Made by a program: the position numbers and the translations under genes. DNA of 63,617 bases, counting the filler, from an uncultured Methanosarcinales archaeon (GTDB lineage Archaea; Nanobdellota; Nanobdellia; Woesearchaeales; CALCXY01): NCBI GenBank assembly GCA_964385185.1. It is 5 parts of 5 records of this genome, joined end to end, with 100 filler letters (N's around TTAATTAATTAA, not from the genome) between each part and the next. Parts side by side here need not be neighbours in the genome. Positions count along the whole stretch, not along the records: positions 1 to 17,074 come from CAYLOA010000025.1; 4 more parts are not named here. One strand, given 5' to 3'. The notes under the pieces are model-generated. The model was not told where the DNA came from. It did not search any database and saw only the letters and a list, made by a program, of their open reading frames with translations. Below, piece by piece: positions 2,669 to 60,201 of the stretch. The first letter of the stretch is position 1. The number at the start of each line of letters is the position of its first letter.

Positions 2669-3427
2669 ATGGAGCTACAAGAACTGCGTAGAATCGGACT
2701 TACAGATGGAGAAATTAAAGTATATGAAGCACTCTTAGAGCTAGGAGAATCAACGAAAACAGCCTTAGCTAAAAAATCAGGAATTGCTCCCTCAAATATC
2801 TATGATGTAACTAACAGATTAATTGAGAAAGGGATTATCTCTAAAGTAGAGAAAAATGGTGTTGCTCACTTTAGTCCAGCTAATCCTAAAAGAATTCTTG
2901 ATTTTTTAGAACAAAAAGAAAAAGAGATGCAGAAAGAGAGGGATTTTGTAAATACTATTTTACCTACTCTATTGTTAAAATTTAGCGAAGCTAAAGAAAA
3001 AACTAATGTTGAAGTTTTCTCTGGATGGAATGGTATGAAAACAATTTTTGAAGATCTAATTGATGAATGTAAGAGAGGGGATCAAAATTACATTTTTGGA
3101 GCAAGTAGAGGGGAAAGTGACAAACAAGCAGATAGATTTTTTGTAAAATATTCTAAATTAAGAGAGCAAAGAGGGATTATTACTAACATTATTTTCAACA
3201 AAGAACTAAAAAAACGAAAAGCGAGAATCGATTTTTTTCTTAAATCAAAAAAATATAATGTTCGTTTTCTATCACAGGTAACTCCAGCTGAGATCATGCT
3301 GTATAAGAACAAGACTTGTATTATCATATTAACTAAAGAACCTTTAGTAATAAGAGTCACAAGTCAAGAGGTTATGAAGAGTTTTAAACAATACTTTGAG
3401 ATAATGTGGGGAACAGCGACCCAATAG
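2669..3427 (+). CDS. TrmB-family transcriptional regulator
   Basis: IGLTDGEIKVYEALL...IYDVTNRLIEKG HTH; C-terminal FKQYFEIMW. Confidence 0.88.
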   Translation: MELQELRRIGLTDGEIKVYEALLELGESTKTALAKKSGIAPSNIYDVTNRLIEKGIISKVEKNGVAHFSPANPKRILDFLEQKEKEMQKERDFVNTILPTLLLKFSEAKEKTNVEVFSGWNGMKTIFEDLIDECKRGDQNYIFGASRGESDKQADRFFVKYSKLREQRGIITNIIFNKELKKRKARIDFFLKSKKYNVRFLSQVTPAEIMLYKNKTCIIILTKEPLVIRVTSQEVMKSFKQYFEIMWGTATQ

Positions 3428-3520: not shown

Positions 3521-3624
3521 ACTTAACAGCAACTATGCGATTACGTTCCGGTCGCCACTTCGTAGCTCCTTCCACTTCATCCAAATTTCCCTTCGGGAAA
3601 CTTCGCATAGTTGCAATGTTAGTC
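3521..3624 (+). other. attC-like site
   Basis: ACTTAAC (RYYYAAC) 3521-3527; 12-bp inverted repeat GCAACTATGCGA/TCGCATAGTTGC; GTTAGTC 3618-3624; internal CTTCG-loop hairpins. Confidence 0.65.
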
Positions 3625-4167
3625 TCCAACATAACTATCAGTAATAATAACTTCATTACCCCAATCAACCGTGATAGGTTCTTTATGTTCTAATACAACA
3701 TTAGCTGTAATCAAATTCTTAGGTATTGAAGGATTATAAGGCCCTTCTGCAACTTTTACATCATCAACCATAAATGCCTGCCCTCTATCAACATGAAAGG
3801 TATATAATAATTTGTGAGGGTTACCATCAAATAAATCAAAACTACTAGTCTGCATAGGAGGTATACCTCCTTCAAGAGCTTTGGCACCCATATTATAGAT
3901 AATCTTTAACCCAGCAATCTGTCTACTATTAATCAGTACAATATAATCAGGAATTAATCCAAAGTGATGTTCAACCTCTTCCATTGAACCTTGAAAATTC
4001 ATAACAACAGTACCCTCTCTTTTATTTTCAAAATCACTTGGCTGATATAAAGCACCATAAGTAAACTCACTAGGGGGTTTAAACATCTCAAATCTTTGTT
4101 CAACATACCAAACCCCACTTAATAACAAGAACGCAACTCCAATAATAATCAAAGCACCATGTTTCAT
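3619..4167 (-). CDS. Hypothetical membrane-anchored protein
   Basis: 182-aa ORF with N-terminal hydrophobic helix; family not recognised. Confidence 0.7.
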   Translation of the reverse strand: MKHGALIIIGVAFLLLSGVWYVEQRFEMFKPPSEFTYGALYQPSDFENKREGTVVMNFQGSMEEVEHHFGLIPDYIVLINSRQIAGLKIIYNMGAKALEGGIPPMQTSSFDLFDGNPHKLLYTFHVDRGQAFMVDDVKVAEGPYNPSIPKNLITANVVLEHKEPITVDWGNEVIITDSYVGD

Positions 4168-4233
4168 ACTCTAAATGAGATGTCATTCTTTAAAAATCTA
4201 TTCCCCATATCTAAAATAAGTATCTCTCAAAAG

Positions 4234-4277
4234 GCTCGCAGTCGTAAGACTGCGAGAGTTGGCACTCTGTGAGTGCC
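4234..4277. repeat. Twin-hairpin REP-like repeat, family A copy 1
   Basis: Reverse complement matches 51423-51466 at 43/44 nt. Confidence 0.9.
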
Positions 4278-4312
4278 TCCACCCCTACCTTTCCAAAACC
4301 CAAGACACAATA

Positions 4313-4320
4313 TTTATAAA
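4313..4320 (+). promoter_or_regulatory. TATA box for the uORF-cysE-cysS unit
   Basis: TTTATAAA centred about 27 nt before ATG 4343. Confidence 0.65.
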
Positions 4321-4342
4321 CCTCCAACCATTACCATTCCTT

Positions 4343-4366
4343 ATGTCAACAAACTGCTGTTGCTAA
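4343..4366 (+). CDS. Putative cysteine-sensing leader peptide MSTNCCC
   Basis: ATG TCA ACA AAC TGC TGT TGC TAA, ending 30 nt before cysE. Confidence 0.65.
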   Translation: MSTNCCC

Positions 4367-4396
4367 TTCTACCATTTAACTAGTCTGAGGTATAAA

Positions 4397-4948
4397 ATGA
4401 CATTCCTATCAACACTACAAGAAGATATAAAACAAGTAAAAAAGAACGATCCTGCAGTTAAGTCTCTACTAGAAGTACTCCTCTGCCACACTCCATTACA
4501 CGCAATACTTATACATAGAATAATCCACCCTTTAAGAAATATCCCTATCCTCCCCAGATTCCTCTCACAAATAAATCGATTCATAACAGGAATTGAAATT
4601 CATCCAGGAGCAACCATAGGAAGAGGATTTTTCATAGACCATGGAATGGGAATAGTGATAGGAGAAACAACAATCATTGGCTCTCACTGCCAAATGTTCC
4701 ATGGAGTAACGTTAGGAGGGACAGGCCATCATAAAGGCAAGAGACACCCAACGATTGGAAATAATGTCTACATCGGTATGGGCGCAACAATCCTAGGACC
4801 CATAAAAATTGGAAATAATGTTAAAATCGGTGCAAACACATTCATAATCATGAAGAACATACCAGACAATTCAACCGTTGTAGGCTATGATCCAAAAATA
4901 GTAAAATTAAATGGAAAGAAAGTTTCGCAAAATCTACAAAAAGCATAA
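4397..4948 (+). CDS. cysE: Serine O-acetyltransferase
   Basis: [40 protein letters not shown]. Confidence 0.93.
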
Positions 4949-4980
4949 AGAATAAAAACACCAAAGAGGTATAACAAAAA

Positions 4981-6375
4981 ATGGCATTAAAACTATACAA
5001 CACGTTAACAAGAACACTTGAACCTTTCAAAGAGATAAAGAAAGGAGAAGTAGGTATCTATGCGTGTGGACCAACAGTATACAACTATGTCCATATAGGA
5101 AACTTACGAGCGTACATCTTCTACGACTTAGTATCAAAATATCTAAAGTATAAAGGTTACAAAGTAAAATTAGTCTCCAACATCACAGACATAGATGATA
5201 AAACAATAAGAGATTCTCAAAAGAACAACCAATCATTAACAGAATTTACCGAAAAATACACCAAGGCATACATTGAAGACCTCACAACATTAAACATCGA
5301 TCTACCTGATGAAATGCCAAAGGCAACCGATTACATTAACCAAATGGTAGACATGACGAAAAAACTCCTAGAAAAAGGTCATGCATACAAAGCAGGTTCT
5401 TCAATCTATTTCAAAATTGATTCCTTTAATAAATACGGACAATTAGCTAAGTTAGACAACTTCGACCAATTAAAAAAGAATGCTGAAGGTCGTCTTTCCG
5501 ACGCAGATGAATATGAAAAAGACGATGTACGAGACTTCGCACTCTGGAAAGCGTACGAAGAAACCGATGGCGATGTATTCTGGGAACCAGATATAGGAAA
5601 AGGCCGCCCAGGATGGCATATTGAATGTTCTGTCATGTCTTCAGACTTATTAGGACCAACATTTGACATGCACTTAGGTGGTGTAGATTTAATCTTCCCT
5701 CACCACACAAATGAAATTGCTCAATCAGAAGGCACAACAGGCAAGAAGTTTGTCAATTACTGGCTACATAACGAACATCTCTTAGTAGAAGGAAAGAAAA
5801 TGTCAAAATCTTTAGGAAACTTCTACACTCTAAGAGATTTAGAAGAAAAAAATCACAAACCTGAAGCTATCAGATATCTTTTACTAGCAACACACTACAG
5901 ACAGAAGTTAAATTTCACACTAAAATCTTTAGAAGCTGCTCAAAACTCAGTAGACAGACTACAAGATTTCTACCGAAATCTAACCCATATCAAAGCCACA
6001 AAAAATCATCCTAAAGTAAAACCTTTAATTGAAAAGGCAAAAGCAGAATTTGAAAAAAAGTTAGATGATGATCTAAACATTTCAGAAGCGTTAGCTGTAA
6101 TTTTCGACTTCATGAGAGATATTAACAAATTAGAACTCTCAAAGCAAAATGCAGAGGATATTATCACTGTAATCAAACAATTTAACACGGTTATAGGAGT
6201 CATCCAAACAGAACAAGACGATCTAGAACCTGCTTTTCAAGAACTCATAGATCAAAGAGAAGAAGCAAGAAAAAATAAAAACTTCGAAGAATCCGATAAA
6301 ATAAGAAATGAATTAAAAAAGAAAGGAATACTCTTAGATGACACCTCAGAAGGAGTCATCTGGAAGAGAACTTAA
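4981..6375 (+). CDS. cysS: Cysteinyl-tRNA synthetase
   Basis: YACGPTVY, HIGN, DFALWK, GRPGWHIECS, KMSKS. Confidence 0.98.
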   Translation: MALKLYNTLTRTLEPFKEIKKGEVGIYACGPTVYNYVHIGNLRAYIFYDLVSKYLKYKGYKVKLVSNITDIDDKTIRDSQKNNQSLTEFTEKYTKAYIEDLTTLNIDLPDEMPKATDYINQMVDMTKKLLEKGHAYKAGSSIYFKIDSFNKYGQLAKLDNFDQLKKNAEGRLSDADEYEKDDVRDFALWKAYEETDGDVFWEPDIGKGRPGWHIECSVMSSDLLGPTFDMHLGGVDLIFPHHTNEIAQSEGTTGKKFVNYWLHNEHLLVEGKKMSKSLGNFYTLRDLEEKNHKPEAIRYLLLATHYRQKLNFTLKSLEAAQNSVDRLQDFYRNLTHIKATKNHPKVKPLIEKAKAEFEKKLDDDLNISEALAVIFDFMRDINKLELSKQNAEDIITVIKQFNTVIGVIQTEQDDLEPAFQELIDQREEARKNKNFEESDKIRNELKKKGILLDDTSEGVIWKRT

Positions 6376-7172
6376 TAATTTTGTTCCTTTCGAAAAGATA
6401 TTCCTCTTTGCATTCTATGTAACCCAAAAAAATCCTCAGCTTCAGGTTCGGAAGTCCAAGTGCCAGGTTTACCAGTTTTCTCAACATGAGTACTTATATC
6501 ATGCTGACTTGACCATCTAGTAAATCCTTCAGATCCTGTAGAATCGGCTAACCTCGGATTATCATACCCACCAAATTGAAGTTCCTGATGAGCAGCATCA
6601 CTCAAATCTGAAAACAATACTTCTCTAGCTCCAAGTTTTACAACATTGGCAAGATTAAAGGTTTCATCCTCTCCCAATAAATAAACTGCATCCACTAATC
6701 TTGGAAAGAAAGATACATCTCCTGAAGCAGTTCCATTTTGATTTCCATAAAGATCAGATAATTCTTGTACATGCTTTGAATCGGGAATTCTTTCCACAGC
6801 ATACATTAAATCGTCTGGATTAACTCCTGTGGAGGCAACTTCTAAAAGTTCATCAACATTACCACCTATTTCAGTCCAAGTTTTTAATACATGATCAAGA
6901 CCAAATTTTGATCCAGCTAAATAGAGATCAACTGTTTGTACTGCATCGATTGTAGTGACATAATTGTCTGAAATTTCTTGATACATTTCCATTAATTTTG
7001 GAGTTGGCTTAAATCTACTTAAAGGACCGTCAGGAACCCAATTAATTTGACGTAATTTATTCTGAGGATTTCCATTCCCATTAGAATGTTGAAATTCTAA
7101 AATGTCGATTTCAGCTTGATTCGCTTTTCTGCCCTGCTTTTCTGCAGCTGATGTATCATATTTTATTGCCAT
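6372..7172 (-). CDS. Hypothetical protein
   Basis: Long ORF; SD-like GAGGGTGG before ATG 7172. Confidence 0.65.
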   Translation of the reverse strand: MAIKYDTSAAEKQGRKANQAEIDILEFQHSNGNGNPQNKLRQINWVPDGPLSRFKPTPKLMEMYQEISDNYVTTIDAVQTVDLYLAGSKFGLDHVLKTWTEIGGNVDELLEVASTGVNPDDLMYAVERIPDSKHVQELSDLYGNQNGTASGDVSFFPRLVDAVYLLGEDETFNLANVVKLGAREVLFSDLSDAAHQELQFGGYDNPRLADSTGSEGFTRWSSQHDISTHVEKTGKPGTWTSEPEAEDFFGLHRMQRGISFRKEQNY

Positions 7173-15636: not shown

Positions 15637-17074
15637 TTAACGATCAAACCTACCTTCATTCCGCTTTCTCACACCTGCAATCTCATCAGCATTCATTCCA
15701 GGCAACACAGGCTCAATAGGTATCGAAGTACTTCCTTTAATCCCACATATCATTTTAAAGTATTTTGTAGCAGACTCTCTCAGACGTTTTCTAGGATGTG
15801 TCAAAACTGTCGGCAAAGCCAAAAAATCCAAACATTGAAACAATTCTGGATTCTCCAACATCTCTTCAACCTGACTTTCATATAACTGTGCATCTAATCC
15901 ACCAGTCCATCCAGCATTACCTGGTGCAAAATCTTTAGTCACGTGAGGCCTTGGAATTGCTCCATATTTCTTATACATATCCTTACAAAATTTGTATGCC
16001 AATTTCAGAGTCTTTCCACTATCAGCTTTATTATGGCCAAATACCATCAATGACTCAGGAGTAACTCCTAAAACCTTACTTGTAGTAATAATAGTACTCA
16101 GACAATATTTTTCATCTTTATTATGTCCTTTACCAATTTTATTCCACAAAGCAGCAGTCATACCATCTACACCATAACCAACAGTATGAAATCCAGCTTT
16201 TACTAGGTCTTGTAAGACTTCAGGAACTCTCGTTTTTAAGTACGGAACTTGGTCTAGTATTCTCTTTTCAACTTTCTTTGGTTTTACACCTTGCAAAAGA
16301 AAAATATCTTGATCTTCCTTTTCCCATAAGTTCACATAGGATTCAACACAGGCTAAACCTCTAAGATTAATCTTAAAGCCTTCATATTTCTCCTTAAGGT
16401 CAATTACATTCTTCGCAAAAGTGTGCAATTCATCAGGTGTCTGAAATACATCTAAGTTTGACATATAGATATTCAGTTCATTGACACCAAAATCTCTCTG
16501 CTTGTTAATCAAATATTCTAATTCATCCTTCATAATACCTTGGTCTCGGTACTTTTCACCAACATTGGGCTGACCAGGCCTATTCCTATCAGCAGTACAA
16601 AAACTACAAGCTTTCGCACATCCTTGAGAAACATAAAAACTAAACTCTCTTCCCACTTTTTCTCCTTTTTCATTTACTTGAGTCAGATATTTTTCCAAAT
16701 ATCCTTGCTTATCTAATTGTTCATATGCAGGAATAAGTGAAACTTCCTCAGGTGCAGGCAATTTACTCTGATCCATTATACTAAAAGGATCATCAACCAA
16801 CTGCTCCAAAACATCACTTCGATTACCATTCAAAGCATCATCTCCAAATAACTCATGAAACTGATCTTCAGGCAATTGTTCAATAACTTATCCACCTAGA
16901 TATACTTGAGCATCTGGATACTCTTCTTTTACTTCTTTTTTTCTCCGTATAGCATCAGGAACATAAGGATGTCCTAGAAGACCGACAGCTACATGTTCAC
17001 CCACCAATTCTGCAAGCTTAATATTCTCATCATGGAACTTAACATCCACTCCAGCAGCCATTAATCGAGCTCCT
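15637..17074 (-). pseudogene. Radical SAM protein, 5'-truncated, with in-frame TAA
   Basis: CAKACSFC motif; frame open to the contig end except TAA at 16888-16890 (…VYLGG*VIEQL…). Confidence 0.7.
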
Positions 17075-17174
17075 NNNNNNNNNNNNNNNNNNNNNNNNNN
17101 NNNNNNNNNNNNNNNNNNTTAATTAATTAANNNNNNNNNNNNNNNNNNNNNNNNNNNNNNNNNNNNNNNNNNNN
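17075..17174. other. Artificial contig linker
   Basis: N-run/TTAATTAATTAA/N-run. Confidence 0.98.
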
Positions 17175-17176
17175 AT

Positions 17177-33989: not shown

Positions 33990-34239
33990 ATGACAGTAGG
34001 AAAACAGGAATATAAGGGAACAATTTCAAATCCCTCTTCAGCTTGTTCTTTTTTCTATATGAATGAAGATACTTTTACTCAAGCTGTTGATGCTGTTTTG
34101 CCTTCCGTATTTAATGATCAAGAATATAATCCGTTAGAAAGATCTTTAGATGATACTCGTAATCTTGTTCTAAGAGGTAGTTTATTAGTCACTCCAAACT
34201 TACCTGATGTACGAATTGGGATTCAATATAAGCATATAT
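33990..34239 (+). CDS. Hypothetical protein (3'-partial)
   Basis: ORF runs into linker. Confidence 0.4.
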
Positions 34240-34339
34240 NNNNNNNNNNNNNNNNNNNNNNNNNNNNNNNNNNNNNNNNNNNNTTAATTAATTAANNNNN
34301 NNNNNNNNNNNNNNNNNNNNNNNNNNNNNNNNNNNNNNN
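34240..34339. other. Artificial contig linker
   Basis: N-run/TTAATTAATTAA/N-run. Confidence 0.98.
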
Positions 34340-35088
34340 ATAATTTTATTACTTTGATGATCCATTGTGGTTCAAGAGGGATGGGACATCAAGTAGCCTC
34401 AGATTTTATTAGAAGTATGGAGAAGAAGTATGGATATGCTGATTTACCTGACAGGGAGTTGATTAATGCCCCAATTACTTCACAAATTGGTCAGAAGTAT
34501 GTGAAAGCAATGAATGCTGCTGCTAATTTTGCTTTTGCCAATAAACAACTTATTACTCATAATATTCGTGAAGAGTTTTCAAAAATATTTGGAGACTATG
34601 ATGTAGGTGTCTTGTATGATATCTGTCATAATATTGCTAAGTTTGAAAAACATAAGATTGATGGGTCCGTTAAGGAAGTTTGTGTGCATAGAAAAGGTGC
34701 TACTCGTAGTTTTGGTCCAGGACGGAAGGAACTTCCTGAGAAGTATCAAGGAGTTGGACAACCTGTTTTGATTCCTGGTAGTATGGGGACTTCTTCTTAT
34801 TTATTAGTTGGGACTGAGAAGGCTGAAGAGGTTAGTTTTGCTTCAACTGCACATGGTGCTGGAAGGGTTATGAGTCGAAATCAAGCTATGCGAGATTTTA
34901 ATAAAGCAGATATTGTTCAAGATTTAGAGAAAAAGAAGATTTATTTACGAGGAGCTTCTAAACGTGGAATTGTTGAAGAAAGTCCTGGTGTGTATAAAGA
35001 TGTTAATGAAGTAGTTAGAGTTAGTGATGCACTTGGTATTGGTAATTTAGTTGTTAAGGTTAAGCCTTTGGGTGTTATTAAAGGATAG
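34340..35088 (+). CDS. rtcB: RNA-splicing ligase RtcB (5'-partial)
   Basis: HCGSRG, HNIAK, HRKGAT, PGSMG, HGAGR. Confidence 0.93.
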
Positions 35089-39029: not shown

Positions 39030-39034
39030 GAAAA

Positions 39035-39481
39035 TGAACGGACCAGAGGAGACGACTAAGTTACTAGTCGACGGCAACGTAGTACAGGGATTTCGTAAAA
39101 CGAAATCCCTGAAGCTAAAATAATGAACGGACCAGAGATAAAGCGGAATTGCTTCCGCAGACCTCTGGTCCTACTCTTTTGAACGGACCAGAGGAGATTT
39201 GAACCGACTGAAAGGTCAGCTCGACACCCTAGTAGTAAGGGGATCCACTTTGTGGACCCCTCAGCTAAAATAATGAACGGACCAGAGGAGACGACTAAGT
39301 TACTAGTCGACGGCAACGTAGTACAGNNNNNNNNNNNNNNNNNNNNNNNNNNNNNNNNNNNNNNNNNNNNNNNNNNNNNNNNNNNNNNNNNNNNNNNNNN
39401 NNNNNNNNNNNNNNNNNNNNNNNNNNTCCACTTTGTGGACCCCTCAGCTAAAATAATGAACGGACCAGAGGAGATTTGAAC
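39035..39481 (-). repeat. Tandem array of tRNA-Arg 3'-end copies with hairpin spacers
   Basis: TGAACGGACCAGAG at 39035, 39124, 39180, 39274 and 39457 (the tRNA itself); 100-N gap at 39327-39426. Confidence 0.85.
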
Positions 39482-39555
39482 TCCCGACCTATCCCTTAGG
39501 AGGGGATCGCTCTATTTGCCTTGTGTTTTACACATCCAGACTGAGCCACAGGTCC
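39461..39555 (-). tRNA. tRNA-Arg(CCU) with 20-nt D-loop intron (39516-39535)
   Basis: Cloverleaf after removal; ATCCC-CT-CCT-AA-GGGAT anticodon arm; BHB motif. Confidence 0.9.
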
Positions 39556-39729
39556 ATAAAGAATGAGGGTTGAAAACTGTATTTAATAGTTGTGGTAGAG
39601 TGGGTAAATGTTTAAATATTGCCAGGAGTATGCATTATTATGGCAGAGGAAGTCTGGATTTGGCAAGATTTTTGCAAATTAACTGTGTACAATAGAAATA
39701 TTTATATACTGTTTCTCTAATATTAATGT

Positions 39730-42025: not shown

Positions 42026-42121
42026 AGCCCCCGATGAGACTTGCACTCATGATCTGCAGCTTACAAGGATCGGCTCCGAATAAAGTCGGAACTGCCGCAT
42101 TGGCTACTATGCTACGGAGGC
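42026..42121 (-). tRNA. tRNA-Thr(UGU) with 23-nt intron at 30/31 (42069-42091)
   Basis: GCCTCCG/CGGGGGC acceptor, U73, GCAGC-CT-TGT-AA-GCTGC after splicing; BHB motif. Confidence 0.88.
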
Positions 42122-46543: not shown

Positions 46544-46660
46544 TTTAATCCACTTTACTGTCCCTCTGGTAAGTTTATATACTTATTGGTTTTAGAGAAT
46601 ATAGGTAAATTTTTGGTAGTTTTGGACATAATTTAGTTCTTGGATATGATAGTGATGGGC

Positions 46661-46701
46661 TCACCACAACAACAGGTGCGCACAGCGCACTGTTGTGGTG
46701 A
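46661..46701. repeat. 41-bp palindromic repeat, family B copy 1
   Basis: TCACCACAAC…GTTGTGGTGA; inner GTGCGC-ACA-GCGCAC. Confidence 0.85.
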
Positions 46702-46753: not shown

Positions 46754-47317
46754 ATGTATATGGAAGATGCAGTCAAAAAGGGAATTCTCCAAATACTTAA
46801 TAAAATTATTAGGGCTGTTGTTAAAAATGATTCTGCTTTGTTGAAATTGATTAGTGAAGATAGTGTTCAGAACGCAGGTATCTATCAAGATGAAGATAGT
46901 ATAACAATTGCTGTTGTTGGATATGCTTTATCAAAGACATGTCAAAGATGTATTGTTGAAGAAGAAGGTAAACCTTTGCATACCTTAATCCTCTCTGAGT
47001 TGCAAAAGGCAAGGGATCTTTTGGAAAAAGGAAATGAACAAGAATATAGAAAACATATCAAGAGTTTAGTGAAAGATATTATTTCTATAGATAACAAATT
47101 CAAAATTTATATTGAAGAGGTTATTGAGAAGGCTAAAATCAAAAAGGGGAGTGCATTGTATGCTACTGGAATTAGTATGGGTCGTGCTTCTGAATTATTA
47201 GGAATTAGTCAGTGGGAGTTAATGAATTACTTGGGGAAAACTACACTTAGTGATCAAACAGGGGAGGCTGTGCCTACAGGAGAACGATTGGCCTTTGCAA
47301 GAGGTTTGTTCAAGTGA
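46754..47317 (+). CDS. Hypothetical protein with C-terminal UPF0175-like HTH
   Basis: GISMGRASELLGISQWELM. Confidence 0.7.
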   Translation: MYMEDAVKKGILQILNKIIRAVVKNDSALLKLISEDSVQNAGIYQDEDSITIAVVGYALSKTCQRCIVEEEGKPLHTLILSELQKARDLLEKGNEQEYRKHIKSLVKDIISIDNKFKIYIEEVIEKAKIKKGSALYATGISMGRASELLGISQWELMNYLGKTTLSDQTGEAVPTGERLAFARGLFK

Positions 47318-48609: not shown

Positions 48610-49081
48610 TTAAATCTTTTTGACAATTCCTAGAGTTGCATCTACTTCTACTAGATCTCCATCATGAAGAACCTTTGTTGCATTGCTTGTACCGATGATT
48701 GTAGGAGTTTTCAGTTCTCGTGCTACAATAGCTGCGTGGCAGAGCATACCTCCTGCATCGGTGATGATAGCGGATGCCTTTTCCATAATAGGTAGGAAAT
48801 CTGGATTGGTCATACCTGTTACTAAAATGTCTCCCTTTTGGAAATCATTTTTGATATATGGATCTAACAAGATCTTTACTTTTCCTTTTATTTTTCCTGG
48901 AAAGGCTATAGTTCCTTCTACCTTTTTTGATTCTGGAAATAATGATTCTTCAAACTGTTTAGCTTTATTTGCAGTTAAGATTACAAGATTACCCTCAGTT
49001 GATCCTAGTATTGAATGATTGTGTCTTTGGATCAGGATATTGTCCTTTGGAAGAACCTTCTTGTGTATGTAATTCTTTAAT
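48610..49081 (-). CDS. PEP-utilising enzyme mobile (phospho-His) domain protein, 5'-partial
   Basis: ILVTGMT-PD, GGMLCHAAIVAREL; frame open to contig edge. Confidence 0.85.
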
Positions 49082-49181
49082 NNNNNNNNNNNNNNNNNNN
49101 NNNNNNNNNNNNNNNNNNNNNNNNNTTAATTAATTAANNNNNNNNNNNNNNNNNNNNNNNNNNNNNNNNNNNNNNNNNNNN
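49082..49181. other. Artificial contig linker
   Basis: N-run/TTAATTAATTAA/N-run. Confidence 0.98.
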
Positions 49182-49382
49182 AAAGATCTGAACTAGGAAA
49201 ACGATTTCCAGACATGTATCTGAAGAAACAAATACTTTCTTTAGACATTCAAGACATTTACCAATATAATCAACCAGAACTAAAAGATATGCTTACCAAA
49301 AAAATTAATCATCTAGCCATTCAGCAAACTGTTCCTTCTTCAACAACATAAACTATAAATACCCCTAAACTCAAAACAACCC

Positions 49383-51422: not shown

Positions 51423-51466
51423 GGCACTCACAGAGTGCCAACTCTCGCAGTCTTTCGACTGCGAGC
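51423..51466. repeat. Twin-hairpin repeat, family A copy 2
   Basis: GGCACTC-ACA-GAGTGCC plus CTCGCAGTC-TTTC-GACTGCGAG. Confidence 0.9.
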
Positions 51467-51477
51467 ACATCTGCAAG

Positions 51478-51518
51478 TCACCACAACTGCACCCTGTGGG
51501 TGCCAGTTGTTGTGGTGA
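51478..51518. repeat. 41-bp palindromic repeat, family B copy 2 (inverted)
   Basis: Same termini and length as 46661-46701; inner stem covaries. Confidence 0.85.
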
Positions 51519-51622
51519 CACTACCTATAACATGATACCTGTTTTAACGATACAAATTCTCTTAAAACGAACAAACCGTAAACTATTAAAAGGAAAAGAC
51601 TACCTGAATATCGGTGATAATT

Positions 51623-51865
51623 ATGTCAGATGAAAAAAAAGTAATTGTATACTCAACAACAAATTGTCCTTGGTGTCATAAAGCAAAAGACTTCCTAAAA
51701 GAACAGAAAATTGCTTTCGAAGACATCAATGTAGAAAATGATGAAAAAGGACGAGAAGCCATGATTGAAAAATCAGGTCAAATGGGAGTTCCTGTTATCA
51801 ATGCAAAAGGAACAATTATCGTTGGCTTTGACGAACCTAAAATCAGAACAGCTTTAGGTATTTAA
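51623..51865 (+). CDS. Glutaredoxin/NrdH-like protein
   Basis: CPWC, GVPV, VGFD. Confidence 0.9.
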   Translation: MSDEKKVIVYSTTNCPWCHKAKDFLKEQKIAFEDINVENDEKGREAMIEKSGQMGVPVINAKGTIIVGFDEPKIRTALGI

Positions 51866-59908: not shown

Positions 59909-59979
59909 ATGAAAACAGTTGGAATAATTGGAGGTCTTGGACCGGAAACAACTTCGGAATTTTACTTAGACTTAGTCTT
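59909..59979 (+). CDS. Aspartate/glutamate racemase family (3'-truncated)
   Basis: MKTVGIIGGLGPETTSEFYLDLV. Confidence 0.75.
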
Positions 59980-60079
59980 NNNNNNNNNNNNNNNNNNNNN
60001 NNNNNNNNNNNNNNNNNNNNNNNTTAATTAATTAANNNNNNNNNNNNNNNNNNNNNNNNNNNNNNNNNNNNNNNNNNNN
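59980..60079. other. Artificial contig linker
   Basis: N-run/TTAATTAATTAA/N-run. Confidence 0.98.
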
Positions 60080-60201
60080 ACGATGTTGTGTAGTCCATTA
60101 ACGGCAAAGCCAAATACACTACCTCCCATAATAAATCCCAATACTCCTACTAGCAAAAACACAACTCCTATGATTTTTGCCCACGTTTGATTTGCTCCCA
60201 T
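60080..60201 (-). CDS. DUF4383-like membrane protein (partial)
   Basis: GVVFLLVGVLGF…FAVNGLHNI. Confidence 0.6.

What the first reader, a model, noticed from the sequence alone, without database searches (positions are those of the whole stretch)
4313..4396. Leaderless tri-cysteine uORF ahead of cysE-cysS: candidate archaeal Cys-sensing attenuator
Seen: TATA box TTTATAAA (4313-4320), then ATG at 4343 at the expected archaeal start-site distance, encoding MSTNCCC* (TGC TGT TGC TAA). cysE follows 30 nt later with its own GAGGT SD, then cysS. Established: leaderless poly-Cys sORFs act as Cys-responsive attenuators in mycobacteria, and Firmicutes control cysE-cysS by a T-box. Inference: ribosome stalling at three Cys codons tunes cysE/cysS expression. 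I do not know of such a system described in DPANN archaea. The mechanism is unclear: only a weak TACC/GGTA pairing over the SD is visible, so translation-coupled termination is an alternative.
Basis: partly seen in the sequence, partly recalled or inferred. Interest (0 to 1): 0.85.

Follow-up and report, generated by a model that had tools for sequence, protein, structure and literature searches.

The report
Three-cysteine mini-ORF heading archaeal cysE-cysS
A seven-codon reading frame ending in three cysteine codons sits where the transcript of an archaeal cysteine operon is predicted to begin, so it could be a sensor of cysteine supply, but no related genome could be checked to show that it is more than coincidence.

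Summary
TTTATAAA lies at 4313-4320. ATG at 4343 opens MSTNCCC-stop (4343-4366). GAGGT lies at 4387-4391, cysE at 4397-4948 and cysS at 4981-6375.

In favour:
- Leaderless mRNAs dominate this Woesearchaeota-like window, with TATA-like hexamers peaking 28-30 nt before gene starts.
- A promoter matrix built from 23 such genes ranks 4343 19th of 125,596 positions. No rival promoter lies in the intergenic region.
- cysE carries a Shine-Dalgarno like an internal operon gene.
- A run of three Cys codons in such a leader has a chance of about 2e-4 (Markov model) to roughly 1e-3 (my estimate from observed frequency).

Against:
- No RNA structure beyond shuffled controls links the small ORF to the cysE ribosome site.
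- No terminator-like site follows the small ORF.
- Conservation is untested.
- Two tRNA promoters also have ATG at the predicted start site, so ATG there does not prove coding.

Verdict: a credible but unproven archaeal counterpart of the mycobacterial polycysteine leaderless small ORFs, about 40% likely to be a working sensor.

The parts
4306..4310 (+). BRE-like CANAA just upstream of the TATA box
   Evidence: It matches the conserved CA.AA columns at -37 to -33 of the matrix built from 23 leaderless gene promoters of this window. Function is inferred.
4313..4320 (+). TATA box TTTATAAA (a palindrome)
   Evidence: it starts 30 nt before ATG 4343. This is the same geometry as the window's leaderless genes, where the peak lies at -28 to -30. 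The plus orientation scores 12.0 bits. The best minus-strand site in 4168-4400 scores 2.2.
4343..4366 (+). Seven-codon ORF MSTNCCC plus TAA, beginning at the predicted transcription start
   Evidence: The promoter matrix ranks this position 19th of 125,596. Translation is inferred, not shown.
4355..4363 (+). Three consecutive Cys codons TGC TGT TGC immediately before the stop
   Evidence: Cys makes up 1.02% of the window's predicted proteins, and TGC is the rarer codon (36 TGC against 155 TGT).
4387..4391 (+). Shine-Dalgarno GAGGT of cysE
   Evidence: The same motif precedes cysS and other internal operon genes. It is absent from nearly all leaderless first genes.
4397..4948 (+). cysE, short serine O-acetyltransferase (183 aa)
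   Evidence: The N-terminus aligns with those of relatives, so the start is right.
4966..4970 (+). Shine-Dalgarno GAGGT of cysS
   Evidence: The 32-nt cysE-cysS spacer has no high-scoring promoter (top list).
4981..6375 (+). cysS, cysteine--tRNA ligase (464 aa)
4234..4277 (.). 44-nt GC-rich double palindrome upstream of the promoter. It is a neighbour and is not shown to belong to the system.
   Evidence: A 43/44 identical inverted copy lies at 51423-51466, upstream of a glutaredoxin-like gene. There is no Rfam match.

Best explanation
The cysE-cysS operon is transcribed from the promoter at 4306-4320. Its mRNA begins at or within a base or two of A4343. The first thing a ribosome meets is therefore a 5'-terminal AUG opening a seven-codon ORF that ends in three Cys codons. 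This organism translates most first genes without a leader, so this ORF is probably translated. How long a ribosome stays on it would depend on the supply of charged tRNA-Cys. That dwell time would set the output of cysE and cysS, which are translated from their own Shine-Dalgarno sites 20 nt (cysE) and about 600 nt (cysS) downstream of the small ORF's stop. A ribosome stalled with a Cys codon in its A site would cover roughly 4343 to 4375. That leaves the cysE ribosome site free. The likely effect of stalling is therefore positive. It would keep the 5' end occupied and protected from 5'-to-3' decay, and keep the weakly folding leader open. Release of a defined sequestering hairpin is not indicated. 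Shown here: the sequence, the promoter geometry, the operon layout and the statistical rarity. Inferred: the start site, translation of the small ORF, stalling, and the sign and mechanism of the effect.
For: (1) TATA-like hexamers start 27-31 nt before gene starts in 26 cases, against 0-2 cases at every other distance. Leaderless initiation is thus the rule here. (2) A matrix of positions -48 to -1 from 23 leaderless genes, with the ATG excluded, scores 4343 at 12.0 bits. That is rank 19 of 125,596, inside the training range of 7.1-21.0. The next best plus-strand site between 4168 and 4400 scores 4.9. (3) cysE has GAGGT at -10 like internal operon genes, and a predicted 54-nt leader. Other leadered first genes that I read off one search have TATA elements implying leaders of roughly 10-30 nt. 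(4) The chance of three consecutive Cys codons is 2.1e-4 by the Markov model, or about 1e-3 by my scaling of the observed intergenic frequency. None of 80 loci fetched with this enzyme has a CCC ORF of 15 codons or fewer within 300 nt upstream. One of the 80 has a 41-codon GTG ORF with CCC. (5) The operon is a known target of tRNA-Cys sensing elsewhere. T-box leaders precede cysE in 6 of 29 bacterial cysE-cysS loci. (6) The same architecture is experimentally established in mycobacteria: a leaderless ORF with Cys codons, first in a cysteine operon (10.1101/834739, abstract and sections 6 and 10 read). Cys runs next to the stop codon without terminators were noted in Actinobacteria (PMC1262725, passages). 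(7) cysE-cysS adjacency is kept in relatives. P0005 and P0123 lie at 4832-5401 and 5427-6824 of one Tara contig. Three further protein pairs share the same longest-contig length.
Against: There is no evidence of conservation. L004, the single archaeal locus, has no such ORF, though its gene context differs. There is no structure. The fold of 4340-4420 has z = 0.20, and 109 of 200 shuffles fold as well. Pairing of the small ORF with the SD/AUG scores 0.27 against shuffle means of 0.19 and 0.22. No terminator-like site lies on the plus strand between 4343 and 4397. ATG at the predicted start site also occurs at two tRNA promoters (42123 and 39557, minus strand). The ATG may therefore be part of the initiator preference and not a start codon under selection. 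No cysK or cysM is in the window, so cysteine synthesis in this organism is not shown. The finding was picked out by eye from an unknown number of windows.
Confidence: 0.4

Rival explanations
1. Coincidence. cysE simply has a 54-nt 5' untranslated leader. The initiator region happens to read ATG, as it does at two tRNA promoters. The following bases (CTGCTGTTGC, a low-complexity CTG/TTG stretch) happen to read Cys-Cys-Cys before a stop. Any translation of it has no regulatory consequence.
For: ATG at the predicted start site of two tRNA genes. TGYTGYTGY is roughly 7 times commoner in the window (19 sites) than I calculate from base composition. Several other short ORFs sit at TATA+27-32 by chance. 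There is no structure. No conservation has been shown.
Against: The chance of the Cys run is 2e-4 to 1e-3, and it sits in front of exactly the two genes whose products make and charge cysteine. None of 80 other loci shows a comparable short ORF.
Confidence: 0.42
2. The small ORF is translated but is only a ribosome-loading or coupling device. Ribosomes enter at the 5' AUG by the organism's preferred leaderless route, terminate at TAA and re-initiate at cysE 30 nt on. The Cys codons are incidental. Alternatively, stalling lowers rather than raises cysE-cysS output.
For: Leaderless initiation dominates here. The stop lies 20 nt from the SD and 30 nt from the ATG. Translational coupling by termination and re-initiation in archaea is recalled knowledge; I read only the search listing of PMC12548453.
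Against: cysE has its own good SD. Nothing explains the Cys run. Lower cysE output under cysteine shortage would be the opposite of the logic of T-box control of the same operon.
Confidence: 0.1
3. Control of cysE-cysS is transcriptional. It would act through the 44-nt double palindrome at 4234-4277, 66-109 nt upstream of the start site. That element recurs almost unchanged upstream of a glutaredoxin-like gene and could bind a regulator, for example the TrmB-like protein encoded at 2669-3427. The small ORF would be irrelevant.
For: Copies are 43 of 44 identical with unrelated flanks. Both lie upstream of thiol-related genes. No promoter is predicted to transcribe the element.
Against: There are only two copies. 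Near-identity including the loops looks more like a recently spread repeat than an operator. The second copy is in the opposite orientation and also lies just after the end of a small-gene cluster. A related hairpin at 46646-46701 sits upstream of an unrelated gene. This reading does not exclude the small-ORF reading.
Confidence: 0.08

Closest known systems
Polycysteine leaderless short ORFs of mycobacteria (Ms5788A and the 'Cys ribulon'; Canestrari et al., 10.1101/834739)
   Same: A short ORF starts at the 5' end of the transcript. It has consecutive Cys codons. It is the first cistron of an operon of cysteine metabolism. The downstream gene has its own SD. No terminator is present. The authors report that two consecutive Cys codons suffice, and that all five ORFs with three or more responded (section 10).
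   Different: This case is archaeal, not actinobacterial. It has only 7 codons and 3 Cys, whereas one search shows more than six Cys codons in Ms5788A. At Ms5788A the Cys tract must base-pair with the SD region (section 6), and here no such pairing exceeds shuffled controls. The downstream genes are cysE-cysS. There are no experimental data and no conservation data.
Candidate Cys leader peptides of Actinobacteria (Seliverstov et al. 2005, PMC1262725)
   Same: Runs of Cys codons lie next to the stop codon of a short upstream ORF, with no terminator hairpin (passages).
   Different: Those are conserved and alignable among Mycobacterium species. Rho-dependent termination was proposed for them, and archaea have no Rho (recalled).
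T-box leader of Firmicutes cysE-cysS (Rfam RF00230)
   Same: The same operon is controlled, and the same signal is read (charging of tRNA-Cys). It was found upstream of cysE in 6 of 29 cysE-cysS loci here.
   Different: The T-box is a roughly 200-nt structured RNA that binds the tRNA directly. There is no T-box match in this window, and the leader is 54 nt and unstructured.
Classical leader-peptide transcription attenuators (trp, his, leu; recalled)
   Same: A short ORF enriched in codons of the regulated amino acid precedes the biosynthetic genes.
   Different: Those need alternative terminator and antiterminator hairpins and an SD-led leader peptide. Neither is present here.
Stalled-ribosome 5' stabilisers such as the ermC leader (recalled)
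   Same: A ribosome stalled near the 5' end could protect the mRNA from 5'-to-3' decay without any special RNA fold. This would fit an unstructured leaderless transcript.
   Different: There the stall is induced by a drug, not by an amino acid. This is purely an analogy and nothing was tested here.

Membership tests
Polycysteine leaderless short-ORF attenuator (mycobacterial type) | The ORF begins at the 5' end of the transcript (AUG or GUG at the start site) | tested here: met
   By sequence geometry only. TATA starts 30 nt before the ATG. The promoter matrix gives rank 19 of 125,596. The start site itself is not mapped.
Polycysteine leaderless short-ORF attenuator (mycobacterial type) | At least two consecutive Cys codons in the short ORF | tested here: met
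   TGC TGT TGC at 4355-4363.
Polycysteine leaderless short-ORF attenuator (mycobacterial type) | First cistron of an operon of cysteine-related genes | tested here: met
   cysE and cysS follow on the same strand with SDs and no intervening promoter.
Polycysteine leaderless short-ORF attenuator (mycobacterial type) | The Cys tract pairs with the SD region of the next gene, so that a stalled ribosome frees it (shown for Ms5788A) | tested here: not met
   The MFE fold pairs the first Cys codon with GGUA of the SD, and the 5' AUGUCA with UGACAU at the cysE start. The energy is only -6.9 to -7.3 kcal/mol (z = 0.20). Also, 146 of 500 and 189 of 500 shuffles pair as well. The authors say this feature may not hold at all loci.
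Polycysteine leaderless short-ORF attenuator (mycobacterial type) | Downstream expression responds to cysteine supply and depends on the Cys codons | not testable with these tools
   This needs a reporter or proteomics in a host that reads leaderless mRNA.
Polycysteine leaderless short-ORF attenuator (mycobacterial type) | Short ORF conserved in related genomes | not tested
L004 lacks it but is a different locus type.
Classical leader-peptide transcription attenuator | Alternative terminator and antiterminator hairpins after the leader peptide | tested here: not met
   No terminator-like site on the plus strand in 3900-5100. No fold beyond shuffles.
T-box riboswitch | Match to the T-box covariance model | tested here: not met
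   No RF00230 match at the gathering threshold in the window, nor at E up to 10 in 4100-4500. The model does find 6 bacterial leaders in the fetched loci.

The most novel reading that the evidence does not exclude
An archaeon senses cysteine supply through the ribosome itself. A seven-codon leaderless ORF with three Cys codons heads the cysE-cysS mRNA, and the time a ribosome spends on it sets the operon's output without any dedicated RNA fold or protein regulator. This would be the first amino-acid-sensing leader ORF that I could find for Archaea. It would have arisen independently of the mycobacterial ones, in a lineage where leaderless translation is the default.
Probability: 0.35. Interest if true: 0.85.

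Novelty: new variant of a known kind. Interest (0 to 1): 0.6.

Why it matters
Regulation by leader peptides that read the charging of a tRNA is a classic of bacterial genetics. I found no described archaeal case in the listings of five literature searches (the top 12-15 of 67 to 781 papers were seen). Ribosome-profiling papers on Haloferax and Methanosarcina report upstream ORFs, but in the passages I read they assign them no sensing role. If real, this would show that the leaderless short-ORF sensor is a simple solution reached independently in two domains. It would suggest how small-genome archaea with few regulators tune an amino-acid pathway. It would also give a search pattern (promoter, then ATG at +30, then a run of one codon, then a stop, then an SD-led cognate gene) that could be applied across archaeal genomes.

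Tried and rejected
(1) The search for related loci with an alignment of 16 close enzymes. The conserved motifs chosen match serine acetyltransferases of all bacteria, so the scan stopped at 601 stretches. The 80 loci kept are 79 bacterial plus L004. A single-protein query might have done better.

(2) Scan of 300 nt upstream of the enzyme gene in all 80 loci for ORFs of up to 45 codons with CC or at least 3 Cys. None has 15 codons or fewer. Thirteen loci have longer ORFs of this kind, which are probably chance. The four Actinomycetota loci show no short Cys-run ORF; one (L069) has 25-34-codon ORFs with scattered Cys.

(3) Attenuator structure: rejected.

(4) A small RNA transcribed leftwards from the palindromic TATA box through the two hairpins. 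The fold is good (z = -3.85), but the minus-strand promoter score is at most 2.2, so this is not supported.

(5) An upstream promoter that would put the CCUCC-like stretches at 4276-4280 and 4322-4326 into the mRNA as anti-SD sequences. No promoter above 4.9 bits exists there.

(6) Read-through fusion of the small ORF to cysE, which is in frame. None of the N-termini of 15 relatives extends upstream.

(7) Whether the intron-bearing tRNA at 42026-42121 is tRNA-Cys. No GCA is present in its anticodon region.

(8) Rfam at permissive thresholds on the leader and on both hairpin copies gave only noise.

Full report
**What is there.**
- The window reads TTTATAAA at 4313-4320.
- ATG at 4343 is followed by TCA ACA AAC TGC TGT TGC TAA (MSTNCCC-stop, 4343-4366).
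- GAGGT lies at 4387-4391 and the cysE ATG at 4397.
- cysE (4397-4948, 183 aa) is a short serine O-acetyltransferase. It matches Pfam Hexapep, NCBIfam EpsC at 213.5 bits (cut-off 150), and TIGR01172 cysE at 208.5 bits (cut-off 210.65).
- cysS (4981-6375) scores 510.6 bits on TIGR00435.
- The gene to the left (3619-4167) is on the other strand. It encodes a 182-aa protein with a hydrophobic N-terminus and no family match.
- So 4168-4396 is a divergent intergenic region of 229 nt.
- The small ORF is in frame with cysE, separated only by the TAA. The N-termini of 15 relatives do not extend upstream, so it is not part of the enzyme.

**Whose genome.**
- The window carries archaeal genes: RFC large subunit, archaeal-type uL16, RtcB and AglJ-like glycosyltransferases.
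- The nearest named CysS relatives, at 58-73% identity, are labelled Candidatus Woesearchaeota by their sources.
- G+C content is 34.8%.
- The window is several contigs joined by runs of N with a stop-in-all-frames linker. The cysE contig runs from 1 to about 17074.

**The promoter argument.**
- I listed the 80 nt before every predicted gene.
- TATA-like hexamers start at -31 to -27 in 26 cases (1, 5, 12, 7 and 1). Every other distance has 0-2 cases. Most first genes here are therefore leaderless.
- Genes inside operons instead carry GAGGT or GGAGG a few bases before the ATG.
- A weight matrix of positions -48 to -1 from 23 leaderless genes, with the ATG left out, was run over both strands. 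Position 4343 scores 12.0 bits, rank 19 of 125,596, within the training range of 7.1-21.0. It matches both the TATA columns and the CA.AA columns at -37 to -33.
- Between 4168 and 4400 the next best plus-strand site scores 4.9 and the best minus-strand site 2.2.
- This is therefore the only credible promoter for cysE. It points rightwards even though the TATA box is a palindrome, and it places the start site on the A of the small ORF's ATG.
- cysE then looks like a second cistron. It has an SD and lies 54 nt from the start site. The few other leadered first genes that I read off one search have TATA positions implying leaders of roughly 10-30 nt.

**A caution on that argument.**
- Two other untrained high-scoring sites (42123 and 39557, minus strand) also have ATG at the predicted start.
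- Both turn out to precede tRNA genes that begin at the G of that ATG.
- The first, at 42026-42121, scores 43.1 bits on the tRNA model once searched locally. It has a 30-nt anticodon region, meaning it contains an intron.
- So A-T-G at the start site may be partly an initiator preference. Its presence at 4343 is not by itself evidence of a coding start.
- What remains unusual is the content of the ORF.

**How unusual.**
- TGYTGYTGY occurs 19 times in the window on both strands, 3 of them intergenic.
- Of 1374 short ATG ORFs, only this one has CCC.
- I simulated 2,000,000 leaders from a first-order Markov model of the window's 7,396 intergenic bases. The probability that an ORF starting at the 5' end has at least 3 consecutive Cys codons before its first stop is 2.1e-4. 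For at least 2 it is 7.2e-3.
- Scaling from the observed intergenic frequency, I estimate about 1e-3.
- Cys makes up 1.02% of the window's proteins. cysE and cysS have two Cys each.
- In the 80 loci fetched with the enzyme, none has a CCC ORF of 15 codons or fewer within 300 nt upstream. One (L073) has a 41-codon GTG ORF with CCC at -258.
- The finding was selected by eye from an unknown number of windows, so these figures are not a significance level.

**Mechanism.**
- The mycobacterial model needs the Cys tract to pair with the SD region (10.1101/834739, section 6).
- Here the minimum-energy fold does pair the 5' AUGUCA with UGACAU across the cysE start. It also pairs the first Cys codon with GGUA of the SD.
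- The fold is worth only about -7 kcal/mol (z = 0.20; 109 of 200 shuffles fold as well). It fades as more of cysE is included or the temperature is lowered.
- The summed pairing probability between the small ORF and 4387-4403 is 0.27. When the small ORF's bases are shuffled, 146 of 500 shuffles reach it. When only its internal codons are shuffled, 189 of 500 do.
- No terminator-like site lies on the plus strand of 3900-5100.
- So neither transcription attenuation nor a defined sequestering helix is supported.
- By geometry (my inference), a ribosome held at the Cys codons would cover about 4343-4375 and leave the cysE site free.
- The simplest way stalling could raise expression is by occupying and protecting the 5' end and keeping the leader open.
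- Re-initiation after the TAA is the alternative, and it could give the opposite sign. I cannot choose between these with sequence alone.

**Relatives.**
- Close relatives of the enzyme exist as proteins: P0002 at 86% identity, and P0003 to P0006 at 73-78%.
- cysS follows cysE in them. P0005 and P0123 lie at 4832-5401 and 5427-6824 of one Tara contig. P0002/P0125, P0003/P0121 and P0006/P0124 share the same longest-contig lengths.
- Their DNA was out of reach. 
- In L004 (60% identity) cysE starts 13 nt after a membrane-anchored winged-helix gene. It has no small ORF and no cysS after it. This is a different arrangement and says little either way.
- Among the 80 loci, 29 have cysS directly after cysE. 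Six of those 29 have a T-box leader in front. This confirms that the operon is elsewhere controlled by tRNA-Cys charging.

**Literature.**
- Canestrari et al. show that polycysteine leaderless short ORFs control cysteine operons in Mycobacterium smegmatis. Two consecutive Cys codons suffice, all five ORFs with three or more responded, and the authors leave open whether pairing is needed at every locus (abstract and sections 6 and 10 read). Their supplementary tables could not be opened.
- Seliverstov et al. 2005 noted Cys runs next to the stop codon of upstream ORFs, without terminators, in several Actinobacteria (passages).
- Ribosome profiling in Haloferax found upstream ORFs and a mild A-site pause at Cys codons (passages). 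Work on Methanosarcina lists upstream ORFs without assigned roles (passages).
- In the listings I saw no archaeal amino-acid-sensing leader ORF. Only the top 12-15 hits of each search were seen.

**Verdict.**
- The attenuator-structure part of the idea is not supported, and the conservation test is still open.
- I put the working-sensor reading at about 0.40, coincidence at about 0.42, and the remainder on coupling-only or transcriptional control.
- If real, it is a new variant of a known kind: the mycobacterial polycysteine leaderless ORF, in an archaeon and without the pairing.

Noticed in passing
4234-4277 and 51423-51466: A 44-nt GC-rich element of two perfect hairpins (9-bp and 7-bp stems) occurs twice in inverted orientation, 43 of 44 bases identical, with unrelated flanks. 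The single difference keeps a GNRA-type loop (GTAA / GAAA) on one strand. Copy 2 lies upstream of a glutaredoxin-like gene (51614-51865) and about 40 nt after a cluster of small ORFs. There is no Rfam match and no predicted promoter.
   Followed up: partly
46646-46701 and 51478-51533: A second family of long GC-rich hairpins, 73% complementary between copies. One copy lies right next to copy 2 of the double hairpin. The other lies upstream of the gene at 46760.
   Followed up: no
42026-42121 (minus strand): A tRNA gene with a roughly 23-nt intron in the anticodon region. ARAGORN missed it, and so did the whole-window Rfam run. A local search found it at 43.1 bits. It has its own strong promoter, with the start site 2 nt before the mature 5' end. 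Its anticodon was not settled, but no GCA is present.
   Followed up: partly
39461-39537 (minus strand) and 39033-39481: A second tRNA that ARAGORN did not call (Rfam 30.4 bits), with a promoter-like site at 39557. It sits among 55-nt and 48-nt exact repeats on either side of an N gap, which looks like the same contig end assembled twice.
   Followed up: no
about 17074-17176, 34237-34342, 39310-39458, 49081-49183, 59976-60083: Runs of N around a TTAATTAATTAA linker. The window is a chain of separate contigs, so gene order across these points means nothing.
   Followed up: yes
34354-35085: An ORF matching only the C-terminal 250 residues of intein-containing RtcB starts right after an N linker. 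It is a gene cut by a contig end.
   Followed up: no
whole window: Promoter grammar of this organism: CA.AA at -37 to -33, TTTAWAWA from about -30, T at -1 and the ATG at +1. Promoter-proximal genes are mostly leaderless, and internal genes use GAGGT or GGAGG. Several unannotated 26-64 codon ORFs sit at this geometry (15054+, 39640+, 48585-, 50895+ a zinc-ribbon-like 48-aa ORF, 59909+).
   Followed up: partly
51614: The glutaredoxin-like gene appears to start leaderless at a GTG 30 nt after a TATTAAAA element, not at the ATG nine bases further on.
   Followed up: no
P0124 (relative of cysS): In one relative the predicted CysS is 506 aa against 464 aa here. The extra length may be a gene-caller extension into the cysE-cysS spacer.
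   Followed up: no
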